A stretch of DNA of 56,525 nucleotides from an uncultured Legionellales bacterium (GCA_964352905.1 CAYGTS010000002.1:1-56525); one strand, 5' to 3'. Shown: positions 1-56,525, counted from the first letter of the stretch. Translations and numbers: made by a program. Notes: generated from the sequence alone by a model not told the origin.

Positions 1-49
1 AAATCTGAACGTTCTTGGTAAATACTGGCCTAACGGGGTGAGTAGATAC
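1..49 (-). mobile_element. family-1 palindromic element, cut by the window edge
   Basis: AAATCTGAACGTTCTTGGTAAAT...GGGGTGAGTAGATAC matches the Y-arm and tip of the other copies. Confidence 0.75.
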
Positions 50-132
50 CTTTTTTATTCAATAGGTTAGGTGAGCGCGAGGTAAATACAACTAAGGAAC
101 GATTGGCTCTCTGTTTAAACTGCTCTCACCCA

Positions 133-183
133 ATAGTGCCAAAAGGCAATTAAATTGAAAATACTGCCGTTTGGCACTATACT
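133..183 (+). promoter_or_regulatory. putative TA promoter with an overlapping inverted-repeat operator
   Basis: TTGAAA (155-160), 17 nt, then TATACT (178-183). The inverted repeat ATAGTGCCAAAAGGCA (133-148) / TGCCGTTTGGCACTAT (165-180) matches at 15 of 16 positions. Confidence 0.55.
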
Positions 184-215
184 AGAATTAACGAAATGCT
201 CTACAGGTATGCGCA

Positions 216-620
216 ATGAAAACGCACAATGCTAAAATGATTAATTCTTCCAATACTCACCAAAAAAGCAAAGTCGCACTTAAAGCTTTTTTTGGTATTT
301 GTGATCAATGGAATTTAAATGCTGAACAAGCTAGAGTTTTACTCGGTAACCCAGCGCCACGTACCTTTGCACGTTGGAAAAAATTAGATGATAATTTAAT
401 ACTCAATCAAGATAAGTTTGAAAGAATTTCCTATATCTTAGGGATCTATAAAGCATTAAGAATATTATTGCCAAACGCAGAGGCAGCTAATCAGTGGATT
501 CATAAACCCAATACCGCAACACTATTTGCAGGATGTCGTGCCTTAGATAAATTGTTACAAGGCAGGGTTATTGATCTTGCTGATGTGCGTCGCTATTTAG
601 ATGCTGAGCGAGGCGGATAG
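216..620 (+). CDS. Xre-like/DUF2384 antitoxin of a RES-Xre (ParS/MbcA-type) toxin-antitoxin pair
   Basis: 134-aa ORF. The C-terminal half (QWIHKPNTATLFAGCRALDKLLQGRVIDLADVRRYLD) fits the DUF2384 antitoxin pattern. It lies immediately upstream of a RES-domain ORF. Confidence 0.75.
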   Translation: MKTHNAKMINSSNTHQKSKVALKAFFGICDQWNLNAEQARVLLGNPAPRTFARWKKLDDNLILNQDKFERISYILGIYKALRILLPNAEAANQWIHKPNTATLFAGCRALDKLLQGRVIDLADVRRYLDAERGG

Positions 621-1305
621 CATGAGAAAGCCGGCTGTTGCGGATTTATTACAAATTGATCACTATCGCATTATTCCTTCAGTTTATCCTCCCATCAATT
701 TCTTTGAAGAATTAGTCGATGCTTCAGAAATGGAAATACTATGGGAAATAGAAAGTCTGACTAATGAACGATTAATTGAAGAAACAGGCAATATTCATTT
801 AGTAAGACAAGAAGATCGCATCAGCGGTGCAGGTTCTTCAGTGGTGATGGCAGCGTTTACGCATATTGGAAAAAGTTCGCGTTTTACCAAGGGTAGTTAT
901 GGTGTTTACTATGCAGGTTTAGCACAAGAAACCGCACTACGTGAAACGATTTATCATCGTGAACGATTTATGCAAGCAACTCAACAGCAAGCAGGTGAAA
1001 TTACGATGCGTTGTTATAAAGGCAAAATTAATAAAGCATTACATGATATTCGCACCAAGCGTTTTCAAAGTTTACATGATCCTAACAGCTATATTGTTTC
1101 ACAAGACTTTGCCAGTAATATACGATCAACACAATCTTGGGGTTTAGTCTATAACAGTGTTCGGCACACAAAAGGACAATGTGTTGCTTTGTTTCGTCCA
1201 CCTGCCACAACAATTCCTAGGCAAGCACAGCATTTTGCTTATGTTTGGAATGGTAAAAAAATTACATCTGTTTATCAAAAGTCAGCACCGATTTTGAGTT
1301 TGTGA
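601..1305 (+). CDS. RES-domain toxin (NAD+-targeting RES family)
   Basis: 234-aa ORF with an R...E...S-type core (SSRFTKGSYGVYYAGLAQETALRETIYH ... GLVYNSVRH). An alternative start ATG at 622 lies 1 nt after the antitoxin stop. Confidence 0.75.
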   Translation: MLSEADSMRKPAVADLLQIDHYRIIPSVYPPINFFEELVDASEMEILWEIESLTNERLIEETGNIHLVRQEDRISGAGSSVVMAAFTHIGKSSRFTKGSYGVYYAGLAQETALRETIYHRERFMQATQQQAGEITMRCYKGKINKALHDIRTKRFQSLHDPNSYIVSQDFASNIRSTQSWGLVYNSVRHTKGQCVALFRPPATTIPRQAQHFAYVWNGKKITSVYQKSAPILSL

Positions 1306-1311
1306 TTTGGA

Positions 1312-1390
1312 GTAACTACTCACTCCGTAGCAGGGAATACCAAATCTGAACGTTCTGGTCAATATAAAGCCACAAGGGGTGAGCAGATAC
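1312..1390 (-). mobile_element. family-1 short form (79 bp, arms only)
   Basis: GTAACTACTCACTCCGTAGCAGGGAA joined to CCAAATCTGAACGTTC...GGTGAGCAGATAC. Flanked by GATTTGGA and GATTTGCA (7/8 direct repeat). Confidence 0.8.
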
Positions 1391-1400
1391 GATTTGCAAA

Positions 1401-54629: not shown

Positions 54630-54650
54630 AAATCTAAGCATATAAGATGA

Positions 54651-54698
54651 CAGTAATTCCCGGCGTGATGTTGAATGATTCAAGAACGGGAATTGCTG
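54651..54698. mobile_element. family-2 mini form (48 bp)
   Basis: CAGTAATTCCCGGCGTGATGTTGAATGATTCAAGAACG-GGAATTGCTG. 9-bp repeat ATAAGATGA at 54642-54650 and 54699-54707. Confidence 0.88.
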
Positions 54699-54703
54699 AT
54701 AAG

Positions 54704-55987
54704 ATGATGCAAATGATGAATCTTAATGCATGGCTAACTTACATTAAGCAACTGAACACCAAGGAAATTGATCTAACGCTTGCGCGTGTTCAAACTGTTG
54801 CTAACTTTTTACAGTTAACACGTTTTAGTTGTCCTGTCGTGATGGTTGCTGGTACTAATGGCAAAGGATCGGTTGTTACAGCCTTAGAATCCATTTTTAG
54901 CGCAGCAGGGTATCGTGTTGCCAGTTACACCTCACCCAAATTATTTACACTCACTGAACAAATTAAAATTAAGCAGCAACCTGTCACTGAAGACGAACTT
55001 GTTAATGCATTACACGTGATCAATAATAACCGCGCTGATCTGCCACTCACTGAATTTGAATTTATAACGCTTGCAGCACTGTATTTAATAAAGCAAGCCG
55101 ATTGTGATTTAATTTTATTAGAAGTGGGCATGGGTGGGCGTGATGATGCTGTGAATGTGGTGGAACCTAACATCAGCATTATAACCAGCATCGATCTTGA
55201 TCACATGCAATTTTTAGGTGAAACGCGTGATAAAATTGCTGCAATAAAAGCAGGTATTTTCCGGTCACAAAAAATTGCAATTTGTGGCGATCCTAATCCG
55301 CCGCAATCATTATTAGATTATGCCCATAAGATTAATACAAAATTATATCTGATCAATAAAGATTTTTCTTATGCTAGTGATAATGAATCATGGTATTGGA
55401 ATTTTAAAGGGATTTGTGAATATTGCCAATTACCTTTCGGCAATATTGATTTGTTTAACGCTGCCATTGCCTTAATGGCAGTTAAATTACTTGAGGACAA
55501 AATGAGTGTTACTAAACAAGCCATTTATCAAGGCTTAGATAAAGCCACATTACCAGGACGCTTTCAAGTAATCGAAAATGAACAAATAATTATTTTCGAT
55601 GTCGCACACAATCCTGCTGCTTGCGAAAATTTAAAAAAGAAAATTCAACAACGCTATCCTAAGCATAAAATTAAAGCACTAGTGGGCATGCTTAAAGATA
55701 AAGATATTAAAAAATCATTATTAAGCATGAGCGATATTATCGATAGTTGGTATGTGGCATCGTTAAATGTTGAGCGCGGTGCTGCTGCTGAAAAACTCAC
55801 TAAAATTTTAGCTGAAAATCATATTACGTCCTTCCATGCTTATGACAATCTTGCCACAGCCTATCAAGCAGCAAGTAGCGAATTGCTAGAAGATGAAGTG
55901 TTAGTTGTTTTTGGATCGTTTATTACTGTGGCAGAGTGTTTGGCGTTGCATAAAGGACAGCAAACCTTATGTAATATAACTACATAA
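54704..55987 (+). CDS. folC: bifunctional folylpolyglutamate synthase/dihydrofolate synthase
   Basis: VAGTNGKGS P-loop and Mur-ligase fold motifs. The ancestral start is ATG at 54704. The track ORF (54647) starts in a duplicated start codon and reads through a 48-bp mini-element. Confidence 0.88.
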   Translation: MMQMMNLNAWLTYIKQLNTKEIDLTLARVQTVANFLQLTRFSCPVVMVAGTNGKGSVVTALESIFSAAGYRVASYTSPKLFTLTEQIKIKQQPVTEDELVNALHVINNNRADLPLTEFEFITLAALYLIKQADCDLILLEVGMGGRDDAVNVVEPNISIITSIDLDHMQFLGETRDKIAAIKAGIFRSQKIAICGDPNPPQSLLDYAHKINTKLYLINKDFSYASDNESWYWNFKGICEYCQLPFGNIDLFNAAIALMAVKLLEDKMSVTKQAIYQGLDKATLPGRFQVIENEQIIIFDVAHNPAACENLKKKIQQRYPKHKIKALVGMLKDKDIKKSLLSMSDIIDSWYVASLNVERGAAAEKLTKILAENHITSFHAYDNLATAYQAASSELLEDEVLVVFGSFITVAECLALHKGQQTLCNITT

Positions 55988-56010
55988 CTAGTCAATCTAC
56001 ATAAAAAAAC

Positions 56011-56058
56011 TTGCCTTTTCCCCTAATTTTGCTACAATATGACTAGTTAACTAGTCAT
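56011..56058 (+). promoter_or_regulatory. promoter-like site followed by a perfect 20-bp palindrome upstream of the ATPase gene
   Basis: TTGCCT (56011-16), 16 nt, then TACAAT (56033-38). Palindrome ATGACTAGTTAACTAGTCAT at 56039-58. An extra half-site AACTAGTCA lies at about 55986-94. Confidence 0.5.
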
Positions 56059-56070
56059 ATTGCATAAAAT

Positions 56071-56473
56071 ATGTTTCAAATCGATCGTGCCATTAAACAA
56101 GAATTCCTAGATTGTACCCTCTCTTATCCCGTGGTCACAATTATTGGGCCAAGACAATCAGGAAAAACAACACTTGCCAGAACAGAATTTGCACATAAGG
56201 ATTACGTAAATTTAGAAATTCCAGAAGAACGTGAATTTGCCTTAAGTGATCCCAAACGTTTTTTGGCGCGTTTTCCTAAAGGTGCTATTTTAGATGAAAT
56301 TCAACGTGTGCCACAGTTACTTTCCTATATTCAGGCCATTGTTGATGAACATGATCAGAACGGCGTGTTTATTTTAACAGCAAGTCATCAATTAGAATTA
56401 CAACAAGAAATCACACAATCACTGGCGGGCCGCACAGGATTATTAAAGTTATTACCACTGAGTTTAATTGAAT
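56071..56473 (+). pseudogene. AAA-ATPase (DUF4143-type ATP-binding protein) N-terminal part, interrupted by a repeat element
   Basis: Walker A GPRQSGKTT and ILDEIQ Walker B. After codon ~134 the frame runs into the element at 56474 (CICSPPLALYLPERSDL). These proteins are normally about 400 aa. The window ends before the outcome is visible. Confidence 0.6.
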
Positions 56474-56525
56474 GTATCTGCTCACCCCCTTTAGCTTTAT
56501 ATTTACCAGAACGTTCAGATTTGGC
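56474..56525 (+). mobile_element. family-1 element, cut by the window end
   Basis: GTATCTGCTCACCCCCTTTAGCTTTATATTTACCAGAACGTTCAGATTTGGC is nearly identical to the left arm at 53871 and to the reverse complement of the arm at 18575. Confidence 0.85.

What the first reader, a model, noticed from the sequence alone, without database searches (positions are those of the whole stretch)
1..56525. Two related MITE-like palindromic element families saturate the intergenic space (about 25 copies or fragments in 56 kb) with no transposase in sight
Family 1 has GTAAC/GTATC tips. Five full copies are each exactly 178 bp: 7348, 18398, 22967, 48101 and 53871. Two more are cut by the window edges. There are also two 119/120-bp variants and several 44-79-bp arms-only forms. 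Seven insertions are flanked by 8-bp direct repeats: GAAATTTT, AAAAAGGT, AAAATTAG, GAATTATT, GGTGGTTA, GATTTG[G/C]A and G[C/A]TTTGAA. An eighth repeat, GTTTCACA, flanks the arm-plus-element composite at 53835 with one unexplained extra base. Family 2 has CAG[T/C]AATTCCCG tips, 172-174-bp full copies at 5400, 7237, 29710 and 34507, and 48-53-bp mini or solo forms. All six complete insertions have perfect 9-bp direct repeats: AACTTGGCT, ATGATCAAG, TTACACAAG, CATAACAAG, ATATTTGGT and ATAAGATGA. Clean duplications, a nested insertion and reconstructable empty sites indicate transposition rather than REP-type amplification. The family-1 copy at 18398 is the exception, with no convincing flanking duplication. 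As I recall the ISfinder descriptions, GTAA-initiated inverted repeats with 8-bp duplications are the hallmarks of the IS66 family, which would make an IS66-type enzyme the first candidate partner for family 1. That is a hypothesis only. Insertions cluster within a few nt of stop codons of convergent or tandem genes.
Basis: partly seen in the sequence, partly recalled or inferred. Interest (0 to 1): 0.85.

Follow-up and report, generated by a model that had tools for sequence, protein, structure and literature searches.

The report
Two MITE families from IS66-type transposons
A 56-kb chromosome piece from an uncultured Legionella-relative is peppered with about two dozen copies of two related, gene-less miniature transposons whose ends match a known transposon group (single-gene IS66/ISBst12), so it is a clear but fairly ordinary case of parasitic DNA.

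Summary
I count 24 copies or fragments, 2.6 kb in all: 4.5% of the window and about 45% of its intergenic DNA.

Family 1 (F1) has GTAWCTRYTCA tips and 178-bp full copies. It carries 8-bp target duplications: six perfect, two 7/8, two absent. Family 2 (F2) has CAGYAATTCCCG tips and 172–175-bp full copies. Its 9-bp duplications are perfect in 6 of 6. One F1 copy sits inside an F2 copy, and the other F2 copies serve as its empty site.

No transposase lies in the window. The host is a Legionellales-like MAG.

F1 tips are identical over 13 nt to the inverted repeats of full-length single-ORF IS66-family (ISBst12-group) insertion sequences. Of 24 such ISs, 19 have perfect 8-bp duplications.

F2 is homologous to F1 along its whole length. 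Its tips are one base shorter and diverged, and no IS with those tips or a 9-bp duplication was found.

The arms stay complementary across three diverged lineages, with 30 compensatory pairs.

The elements are not Coxiella QMITE2, not REPs and not in Rfam. Verdict: genuine MITEs, new members of a known kind, moderate interest.

The parts
1..49 (-). F1 copy cut by the window edge (A-type arm, tip GTATCTACTCACC)
   Evidence: nhmmer E=2e-5; sequence read
1312..1390 (-). F1 mini, 79 bp (B tip joined to A arm, no core); duplication GATTTGGA/GATTTGCA (7/8); lies 6 and 10 nt from two convergent stop codons
5400..5571 (+). F2 full copy, 172 bp; duplication AACTTGGCT 9/9
5596..5659 (.). F1 mini, 64 bp (B-type arm on both sides); no duplication
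7237..7597 (-). F2 full copy (175 bp of its own) interrupted by a nested F1; duplication ATGATCAAG 9/9; lies 5 nt from each of two convergent stop codons
7348..7525 (+). F1 full copy, 178 bp, nested inside F2; duplication GAAATTTT 8/8; the other F2 copies carry this 8-mer once, so they act as empty sites
9905..9953 (.). F2 mini, 49 bp; duplication TTACACAAG 9/9
10954..10986 (.). Possible F1 micro-remnant, 33 bp, tips only (GTAAATTCACC...GAATAGATAC); no duplication; uncertain
   Evidence: (D10)
18223..18289 (-). F1 mini, 67 bp; duplication GCTTTGAA/GATTTGAA (7/8); overlaps the stop codon of ORF 17588-18226
18398..18575 (-). F1 full copy, 178 bp, inverted; no duplication
22967..23144 (+). F1 full copy, 178 bp; duplication AAAAAGGT 8/8
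24044..24162 (-). F1 variant, 119 bp, with a different core; duplication AAAATTAG 8/8
   Evidence: (D11)
29710..29883 (+). F2 full copy, 174 bp; duplication CATAACAAG 9/9; the stop codon of the MatE gene (28349-29734) lies 25 nt inside it
34507..34678 (-). F2 full copy, 172 bp; duplication ATATTTGGT 9/9
42284..42326 (+). Solo F1 B-type arm (tip mutated to GTCAC)
43830..43949 (-). F1 variant, 120 bp; duplication GAATTATT 8/8; overlaps the stop codon of ORF 43946-44479
46251..46317 (-). Partial F2 (A-type arm only); the stop codon of the DUF1015 gene (46269-47564) lies inside it
   Evidence: nhmmer E=6e-8
48101..48278 (+). F1 full copy, 178 bp; duplication GGTGGTTA 8/8
48287..48339 (+). Truncated F1 right half, starting directly after the duplication of the 48101 copy
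53835..53870 (+). 36-bp F1-like arm directly abutting the next copy
53871..54048 (+). F1 full copy, 178 bp; GTTTCACA flanks arm + copy + one extra C
54078..54131 (-). Truncated F1 half (A2-type arm, tip GTAACTGTTCAGT)
54651..54698 (.). F2 mini, 48 bp; duplication ATAAGATGA 9/9
56474..56525 (+). F1 copy cut by the window edge
   Evidence: nhmmer E=4e-9

Best explanation
[quoted passage not shown] They are internally deleted descendants of single-ORF IS66-family insertion sequences of the ISBst12 group.

Each full copy keeps an IRR-like end (A arm, usually GTATC...), a short core, and an IRL-like end (B arm, GTAAC...GTAG..GGGAACG). It encodes nothing.

Copies move when a DDE transposase of that group, encoded elsewhere in the genome or now lost, binds the two tips. 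It inserts the element into AT-rich target DNA with a staggered cut. The stagger gives 8-bp duplications for F1 and 9-bp duplications for F2.

Tips of roughly 20-25 nt are enough, because 48-79-bp minis carry clean duplications.

F2 is a sister lineage of F1. It has the same architecture and is alignable end to end. Its tips are one base shorter and diverged, and its duplication is one base longer. It therefore most likely answers to a distinct, not yet sampled relative of the same transposase group.

Shown: the anatomy, the duplications, the nested insertion, the identity of F1 tips with real ISBst12-group ISs, and F1-F2 homology. Inferred: trans-mobilisation, the identity of the enzyme in this organism, and the F2 partner.
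For: 1. Inverted tips plus fixed-length, variable-sequence duplications far beyond chance.

2. A nested F1 in F2 with an exactly reconstructable empty site.

3. F1-like copies in four Microflora Danica MAGs and one JGI metagenome contig also carry perfect 8-bp duplications.

4. Published ISDge4 (ISBst12 group, shown to transpose experimentally) has TIRs GTGACTACTCAGCA / GTAACTGCTCAGCA and an 8-bp repeat (PMC12898284).

5. Full-length ISs examined here:
- The Geobacillus pHTA426 IS is 1635 bp. Its 485-aa transposase scores 334 bits on NCBIfam IS66. Its tips are GTATCTATTCAGCCC / GTAACTATTCAGCCC and its duplication is GACGAGTT.
- The Vibrio casei IS has GTAACTATTCACCC at both ends.
- ISKpn15 has GTAAGTATTCACC / GTATCTATTCACC with duplication CTCCAGGG.
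- Of 24 full-length ISBst12-like ISs from plasmids and IMG/VR, 19 have perfect 8-bp duplications and GTAAC-type tips.
- Three further ISs of this kind, on five contigs fetched from public assemblies, have GTAACCGTTCAC tips.

6. The GTAAC (IRL) versus GTATC (IRR) asymmetry of some of these ISs is mirrored in F1's B and A arms.

7. F1 and F2 align over their full length, with conserved blocks GAACGnTCAGATTTG, TGAGCA and CAAATATGG..GTTCC..CTAC.
Against: No IS66-family gene, nor any transposase, is in the 56-kb window. No full-length IS carrying these arms was found in any fetched locus.

Similarity between F1 arms and the sampled ISs stops after about 14 nt, so the direct parent is unknown.

No IS with CAGYAATTCCCG tips was found. 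None of the 24 sampled ISBst12-like ISs makes a 9-bp duplication.

F1 copies are 83-95% identical and F2 copies 80-97% identical. Activity may therefore be past rather than current.

Two F1 copies lack duplications.
Confidence: 0.8

Rival explanations
1. F1 and F2 are moved by one and the same transposase. The 8- versus 9-bp duplication would follow from the one-base difference in tip length, not from two enzymes.
For: The two families share the subterminal blocks a transposase would bind (GTAG..GGAAC, GAACGnTCAGATTTG) and the same architecture. Relative to those blocks, F2 tips are exactly one base shorter at each end while the duplication is one base longer. Both families coexist and interleave in one genome.
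Against: In DDE transposases the duplication length is normally set by the enzyme, not the donor end (general knowledge). 4 of the first 12 tip positions differ, plus a one-base deletion. Each family is strictly uniform: F1 always 8 bp, F2 always 9 bp. All 19 sampled ISs that have duplications give 8 bp.
Confidence: 0.12
2. F2 has been captured by an unrelated IS family that makes 9-bp duplications (IS4/IS50, ISLre2, ISAs1 or IS903 type). Its resemblance to F1 would then be only ancestral.
For: A 9-bp duplication and CA/CAG-type ends are listed for IS4 subgroups (PMC2266710). ISLre2 and IS4 elements give 9-bp repeats. No 9-bp case was seen among ISBst12-like ISs.
Against: IS50-like ends seen in a related MAG (CTGAATCTTCTACACATCT) do not resemble F2 tips. 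Nor do the ISLre2 ends on pHTA426 (GGTATTGTCAAAAGTT). F2 tips still align with F1/ISBst12 tips at 8 of 12 positions and keep the GTAG..GGAAC block at the same distance.
Confidence: 0.12
3. The elements are REP-like palindromes spread by a RAYT/Y1 enzyme or by recombination, not by cut-and-paste or copy-paste DDE transposition.
For: They are long palindromes with a conserved GTAG motif in one arm. They form very stable hairpins: MFE -61 to -78 kcal/mol, z -6 to -12. They favour gene 3' ends.
Against: REPs and IS200/IS605-type elements make no target duplications. Here 12 copies have perfect duplications and 2 have near-perfect ones. The tips are those of a DDE IS group. Pfam found no transposase or Y1/RAYT-type gene in the window. 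The Coxiella GTAG-REP/QMITE2 sequence is unrelated.
Confidence: 0.03
4. Beyond being selfish, the copies are kept by the host as structured DNA or RNA modules, for example two-way terminators or mRNA 3'-end stabilisers between genes. That would explain why length and arm complementarity are conserved.
For: Full-copy length is held at 172-181 bp across three diverged lineages. 55 predicted pairs are 96.9% paired, against about 40% when the partner column is slid. 30 pairs show compensatory double changes. Most insertions sit at gene 3' ends, several exactly between convergent stop codons.
Against: Pairs are almost all Watson-Crick with few G-U. That fits DNA-level symmetry, from transposase sites or hairpin-templated repair, rather than RNA selection. 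Only three lineages were compared, so independent events are few. In the 1-20 kb region scanned, the simple terminator scan places no site inside an element and shows no enrichment (18 found versus 20.7 expected). The nearest relatives have none in syntenic regions, so the elements are dispensable.
Confidence: 0.2

Closest known systems
ISBst12 group of the IS66 family (single-ORF elements such as ISDge4, ISKpn15, ISAs21, ISAva2, ISH10, and the Geobacillus pHTA426 copy)
   Same: F1 tips GTAWCTRYTCA[CG]C are identical over 13 nt to the TIRs of these ISs. Some ISs share the GTAAC/GTATC left-right asymmetry. Duplications are 8 bp and variable in sequence (F1 TSDs are 72% A+T).
   Different: F1 and F2 have no transposase gene and are 48-178 bp, against 1.5-2.4 kb. 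Similarity to sampled ISs ends after about 14 nt. F2 has CAG tips and 9-bp duplications, which no sampled member shows.
Canonical three-ORF IS66 elements (for example ISPsk01/ISPa75)
   Same: GTAA start. The 8-bp duplication is from my own knowledge of ISfinder.
   Different: Their TIRs read GTAAGCGTCCGGCGAAC... (PMC12888890). Only the first four bases match F1.
QMITE2 of Coxiella burnetii (Wachter et al. 2018, PMC5896051), the described MITE of the same bacterial order
   Same: Same order (Legionellales). Full size 168-181 bp. Unique direct repeats of 7-9 bp. Long stable hairpin. Truncated small forms. Sits at gene 3' ends and overlaps stop codons. Associated with IS110-family insertions. A solo F1 arm next to an IS110-type remnant is seen in L017.
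   Different: The sequences are unrelated. QMITE2 has TIR AAGTGTAGGYTTTC and a GTAGCCCGTATGAGCGAAGCGAAATACGGG palindrome. F1/F2 models find no QMITE2 copy in 14 C. burnetii loci representing four chromosomal regions, roughly 80 kb of non-redundant sequence.
Other bacterial MITEs (Correia, Nezha, Chunjie, MITEAba12)
   Same: Small, non-coding, with TIRs and duplications, AT-rich intergenic targets and stable hairpins.
   Different: Different parent IS families and sequences. No IS66-derived MITE is mentioned in the 2024 prokaryotic MITE review, which has zero occurrences of IS66.

Membership tests
Prokaryotic MITE | Small (<500 bp) and non-coding | tested here: met
   Elements are 48-178 bp. 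No Pfam-bearing ORF lies within them.
Prokaryotic MITE | Terminal inverted repeats | tested here: met
   GTAWCTRYTCA...TGARYAGWTAC for F1 and CAGYAATTCCCG...CGGGAATTRCTG for F2.
Prokaryotic MITE | Target-site duplications of fixed length and variable sequence | tested here: met
   F1: six 8/8, two 7/8, two absent. F2: six 9/9. Null P(8/8) = 1.5e-4.
Prokaryotic MITE | Evidence of insertion (filled versus empty site) | tested here: met
   Paralogous empty site: F1 nested in the F2 copy at 7237, with other F2 copies uninterrupted at the same 8-mer. Orthologous empty sites between strains could not be tested, because the closest genome shares only 76% AcnA identity.
Prokaryotic MITE | TIRs shared with an autonomous IS | tested here: met
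   Met for F1. Not met for F2: no IS with its tips was found.
IS66 family, ISBst12 group (as non-autonomous derivative) | Ends of the GTAAC.. type matching the group's TIR | tested here: met
   F1 matches 13/13 with the Vibrio casei and Geobacillus ISs. F2 matches only 8/12 and lacks the first G.
IS66 family, ISBst12 group (as non-autonomous derivative) | 8-bp duplication | tested here: met
   F1 gives 8 bp, and so do 19 of 24 reference ISs. F2 gives 9 bp, which was not seen in the reference set.
IS66 family, ISBst12 group (as non-autonomous derivative) | A cognate IS66-family transposase in the same genome | not testable with these tools
   None in the window. The rest of the MAG could not be read.
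IS66 family, ISBst12 group (as non-autonomous derivative) | Sequence continuity with a specific parent IS beyond the tips | tested here: not met
   The best global score of 45-nt ends against F1/F2 arms is explained by the tip alone.
QMITE2 (Coxiella burnetii) | Sequence homology to the QMITE2 TIR and GTAG palindrome | tested here: not met
   nhmmer with F1, F2 and combined models finds no QMITE2 copy in 14 C. burnetii loci. QMITE2 copies read directly are unrelated.
REP / RAYT-type palindromes | 20-40-bp GTAG- or CGTC-tagged palindrome, no target duplication, linked Y1 (RAYT) gene | tested here: not met
   Duplications are present. Elements are 4-8 times longer. Pfam found no transposase or Y1/RAYT-type gene in the window.
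IS4 family (IS50/IS4Sa) or ISLre2 as partner of F2 | TIR signature of the family at the F2 tips | tested here: not met
   IS50-like ends are CTGAATCTTCTACACATCT. ISLre2 ends are GGTATTGTCAAAAGTT. The IS4Sa consensus CA------T is not matched at position 9.
Rfam RNA families | Match at gathering threshold | tested here: not met
   0 matches in the window.

The most novel reading that the evidence does not exclude
F2 marks an unsampled clade of IS66/ISBst12-like transposases that cleave one base further in (CAG tips) and make 9-bp duplications. In addition, the strict maintenance of an ~55-pair palindrome and a ~175-bp length across three diverged lineages would mean that the hairpin itself is required. 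It could be needed for transposition (a folded single-strand or cruciform intermediate) or for a host function at gene 3' ends. It would not then be a passive by-product.
Probability: 0.25. Interest if true: 0.55.

Novelty: new member of a known kind. Interest (0 to 1): 0.36.

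Why it matters
It gives a clean, base-resolved example of MITE proliferation in an uncultured Legionellales lineage. It also ties a MITE family to the poorly studied single-ORF branch of the IS66 family, which the prokaryotic MITE literature I could search does not mention.

The minis define a minimal substrate of about 20-25 nt per end for that transposase group.

The F1/F2 pair is a natural experiment: homologous elements differ by one base in tip length and one base in duplication length. 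That could inform how these enzymes measure their cuts.

Practically, the elements break short-read assemblies of this organism. They also rewrite the 3' ends of several genes, so annotation pipelines should mask them.

Tried and rejected
**Cyanobacterial host and Nezha-type MITEs.** This was my first guess from the 39% GC. I dropped it once LptD, ParC/ParE and AcnA homologues placed the host in Legionellales.

**blastn against plasmids.** Whole F1 and F2 queried against 72,556 plasmids gave no match.

**Pattern scans for a full-length parent.**
ORFs next to those hits are housekeeping genes.
- The metagenome scan gave only two hits, a mini and a fragment.
- The viral-contig hits are chance matches.

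**Repeated ORFs in MITE-bearing MAG loci.** These turned up only IS50-like transposases with unrelated ends.

**Empty sites in relatives.**
- The closest genomes share 75-76% AcnA identity and have no F1/F2 in 22-kb syntenic stretches. Their gene content differs at the insertion points, so they are not true empty sites.
- Logan contigs from the same organism simply end inside the elements.

**ISLre2 as F2 partner.** Rejected on tip sequence.

**QMITE2 identity.** Rejected after fetching C. burnetii DNA through the DUF1658 peptides printed in the paper's supplement.

**Hairpin next to the tip (CCnnGTAGnnGG).** By eye the covariation is weak, so I did not pursue it.

**Terminator scan.** It places no site inside an element.

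**Not possible here.** Review tables for ISfinder family hallmarks were not retrievable. ISfinder and Dfam could not be queried.

Full report
**What is there**

The window is a housekeeping stretch of chromosome. It encodes aconitase, LptD-SurA-PdxA-RsmA, ParC/ParE, glycolytic genes, efflux systems and several toxin-antitoxin pairs. GC content is about 39%.

The aconitase is at most 76% identical to anything in the protein collection. Named neighbours are Legionellales, Legionella, a Coxiella-like MAG and Piscirickettsia. Gene order matches a 'Legionellales bacterium' MAG. The host is therefore an uncultured Legionellales-like gammaproteobacterium, not a cyanobacterium as the GC and repeat style first suggested to me.

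**The observation**

Repeat finding and profile scans recover 24 copies or fragments of two families.

*Family 1 (F1).*
- Five full copies are each exactly 178 bp: 7348, 18398 (inverted), 22967, 48101 and 53871.
- Two copies are cut by the window ends.
- Two variants of 119/120 bp carry another core.
- There are minis of 64-79 bp made of the two arms only, plus solo arms and truncated halves.

*Family 2 (F2).*
- Four full copies have 172-175 bp of their own sequence.
- There are two minis of 48/49 bp and one partial copy.

*Duplications.* I re-derived every boundary.
- F1 has six perfect 8-bp duplications. One of them flanks an arm-plus-copy composite with one extra base.
- F1 also has two 7/8 duplications and two copies without any.
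- F2 has six perfect 9-bp duplications out of six.
- For random flank pairs in this AT-rich window, P(8/8) is about 1.5e-4. A 9/9 match was not seen in 200,000 trials.

*Load and position.*
- The elements add up to 2572 bp. That is 4.5% of the window and about 45% of its 5771 intergenic bases.
- About two thirds of insertion loci lie within 30 nt of a stop codon.
- Four ORFs end inside an element.
- Three loci lie between divergent gene starts.

**Evidence that they transposed**

- The duplications differ in sequence from copy to copy but not in length.
- The F1 copy at 7348 sits inside the F2 copy at 7237. Removing it and one GAAATTTT gives a sequence that aligns without a gap to the other F2 copies. 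Those copies carry that 8-mer once. This is an empty site, though a paralogous one.
- Related F1-like copies of 58, 99, 173-181 and 264-265 bp occur in four Microflora Danica MAGs and one JGI metagenome contig. They have their own perfect 8-bp duplications, for example AAAAGTGC, CATAATCT, TTTTTATT and AAATTTCC.
- A few copies there, and the composite here, have one or two extra bases between tip and duplication. I cannot explain this.

**Which enzyme**

No transposase of any kind is in the window.

*Literature lead.* ISDge4 of Deinococcus geothermalis is a single-ORF IS66-family element of the ISBst12 group that was caught transposing. It has TIRs GTGACTACTCAGCA / GTAACTGCTCAGCA and an 8-bp repeat. 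Canonical IS66 ends read GTAAGCGTCCGG.

*Test on real elements.*
- The IS66-family element on Geobacillus plasmid pHTA426 is 1635 bp and encodes a 485-aa transposase (NCBIfam IS66, 334 bits). It ends in GTATCTATTCAGCCC and GTAACTATTCAGCCC and is flanked by GACGAGTT on both sides.
- A tblastn with that protein found 190 plasmids. A profile scan of IMG/VR gave 80 more loci.
- I could delimit 24 full-length elements. All have GTAAC-type tips. These include GTAACTATTCACC at both ends in Vibrio casei and GTAAGTATTCACC/GTATCTATTCACC in ISKpn15.
- 19 of the 24 have perfect 8-bp duplications and none has 9 bp.
- Three more ISs of this kind, on five contigs fetched from assemblies, have GTAACCGTTCAC tips.

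*Result for F1.*
- F1 tips (GTAACTATTCACC, GTATCTATTCAGC, GTAACTATTCAGT and the like) are the TIRs of this group.
- The GTAAC end of F1 corresponds to the end upstream of the transposase gene in the Geobacillus-type ISs. The GTATC end corresponds to the downstream end.
- Beyond about 14 nt there is no similarity to any sampled IS. The direct parent remains unknown.

**Family 2**

F1 and F2 align from end to end. They share the blocks GAACGnTCAGATTTG, TGAGCA, CAAATATGG..GTTCC..CTAC and the same A-arm/core/B-arm layout.

Against the shared GTAG..GGAAC block, the F2 tip reads CAGCAATTC-CC where F1 reads GTAACTATTCACC. It is one base shorter at each end and differs at 4 of the first 12 positions plus a one-base deletion, while the duplication is one base longer.

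I found no IS with such tips in plasmids, IMG/VR or any fetched locus. IS50-like and ISLre2 ends do not resemble them.

The simplest reading is a sister IS lineage of the same group that has not been sampled. Two rivals cannot be excluded: one enzyme serving both families, or capture by another IS family.

**A structural point**

I aligned five window F1 copies, five MAG copies and three F2 copies.
- The alignment folds into one long hairpin of 55 pairs.
- 96.9% of cells are paired, against about 40% when the partner column is slid by 1-3.
- 30 pairs show changes on both sides that keep the pair.
- Almost all pairs are Watson-Crick. This points to symmetry at the DNA level rather than an RNA under selection.
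- Length is also held at 172-181 bp.
- Single copies fold at -61 to -78 kcal/mol, z -6 to -12.
- Only three lineages are compared, so I treat a required hairpin as a possibility, not a finding.
- In the 1-20 kb region I scanned, a simple terminator scan places no site inside an element.

**Comparison with what is known**

- Rfam has no match.
- The only described MITEs of this bacterial order are QMITE1 and QMITE2 of Coxiella burnetii.
- QMITE2 is strikingly similar in kind. It is 168-181 bp, has 7-9-bp unique repeats, forms a long hairpin, has small truncated forms, sits at gene 3' ends, and is a target of an IS110-family element. Its origin is called indeterminate.
- I fetched 14 C. burnetii loci by way of the DUF1658 peptides printed in that paper's supplement.
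- QMITE2 copies there have TIR AAGTGTAGGYTTTC and a GTAGCCCGTATGAGCGAAGCGAAATACGGG palindrome. They have no similarity to F1 or F2. The resemblance is one of kind, not membership.
- One degenerate 98-bp F1-like mini does exist in C. burnetii: GTAAACTATTCAGGC...AAACGTTCAGTTTTGAGCC...GGCTGAATAGTC, with flanks CGTAGCAT/CATAGCAT.
- The 2024 review of prokaryotic MITEs does not mention IS66.
- ISfinder and Dfam could not be consulted.

**Verdict**

These are genuine, well-preserved MITEs. Family 1 derives from the ISBst12 group of the IS66 family. Family 2 is a homologous sister with altered tips and a 9-bp duplication, and its partner is unknown.

They are new members of a known kind. The F1/F2 contrast and the maintained palindrome give it some residual interest.

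Noticed in passing
window 28349-29734, 17588-18226, 43946-44479 (-), 46269-47564 (-): Four ORFs (MatE transporter, nucleotidyl transferase, an unknown, DUF1015) have their stop codons inside an F1 or F2 copy. Their last residues are therefore element-encoded.
   Followed up: partly
window 5717-7231: A 504-aa ORF combines HEAT repeats with a PemK/MazF-like toxin domain. It is bracketed by F2 and F1 copies and absent from the syntenic regions of relatives.
   Followed up: no
window 216-1305 and 18481-19038: There is an Xre-antitoxin/RES-toxin pair and a PIN-domain ORF. The reading frame of the PIN ORF runs into the F1 copy at 18398.
   Followed up: no
window 23336-23479: Three tandem 48-nt repeats lie inside an ORF with no Pfam match (23159-23542) (D12, 105).
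   Followed up: no
L017 4750-5190 (MAG MFD00731.bin.2.180): A solo F1 B-type arm is joined to a truncated IS110-family transposase C-terminus. This recalls IS1111 insertions into QMITE2 in Coxiella.
   Followed up: partly
L003 5522-5786, L009 629-893, L011 4048-4312, L032 3350-3613 (MAG MFD10064.bin.2.12): These are 264-265-bp F1-like variants carrying an extra GC-rich internal segment of about 87 bp. Most have clean 8-bp duplications.
   Followed up: no
L003, L032, L025, L034 and window 54049: One or two extra bases sit between an element tip and its duplication in several copies from different genomes. This is unexplained.
   Followed up: no
L016 ~6000-6035 and L021 7193-7225 (MAG MFD04463.bin.2.67): A 33-bp F2-like tip palindrome (CAGCAATTCCCGCTGGGTACAGCGGCAATTGCT) is followed by another ~130-bp sequence shared by both loci. 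This may be a further repeat family.
   Followed up: no
L018 5352-6924 (Candidatus Methylobacter oryzae MAG): GTNACTGCSCACC-like motifs recur at a 177-bp period. I did not examine them; they may be a coding or tandem repeat.
   Followed up: no
L166 2668-2765 (Coxiella burnetii CP032542.1): A single degenerate 98-bp F1-like mini lies between ftsY and a peptidase M16 gene, with flanks CGTAGCAT/CATAGCAT. It is distinct from QMITE2.
   Followed up: partly
L001 and L039 (Logan assemblies ERR3534981, ERR3534985): Short-read contigs of the same organism, 100% identical to the window, end inside F1/F2 copies. The elements fragment its assemblies.
   Followed up: yes
L026 7845-7988, L028 384-616, L038 524-648: Pairs of inverted GTAACTATTCA-type tips 125-233 bp apart occur in Eubacteriales, unclassified and Chloroflexia MAGs, without duplications. 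They may be old ISBst12-type MITEs in other phyla, or chance.
   Followed up: no
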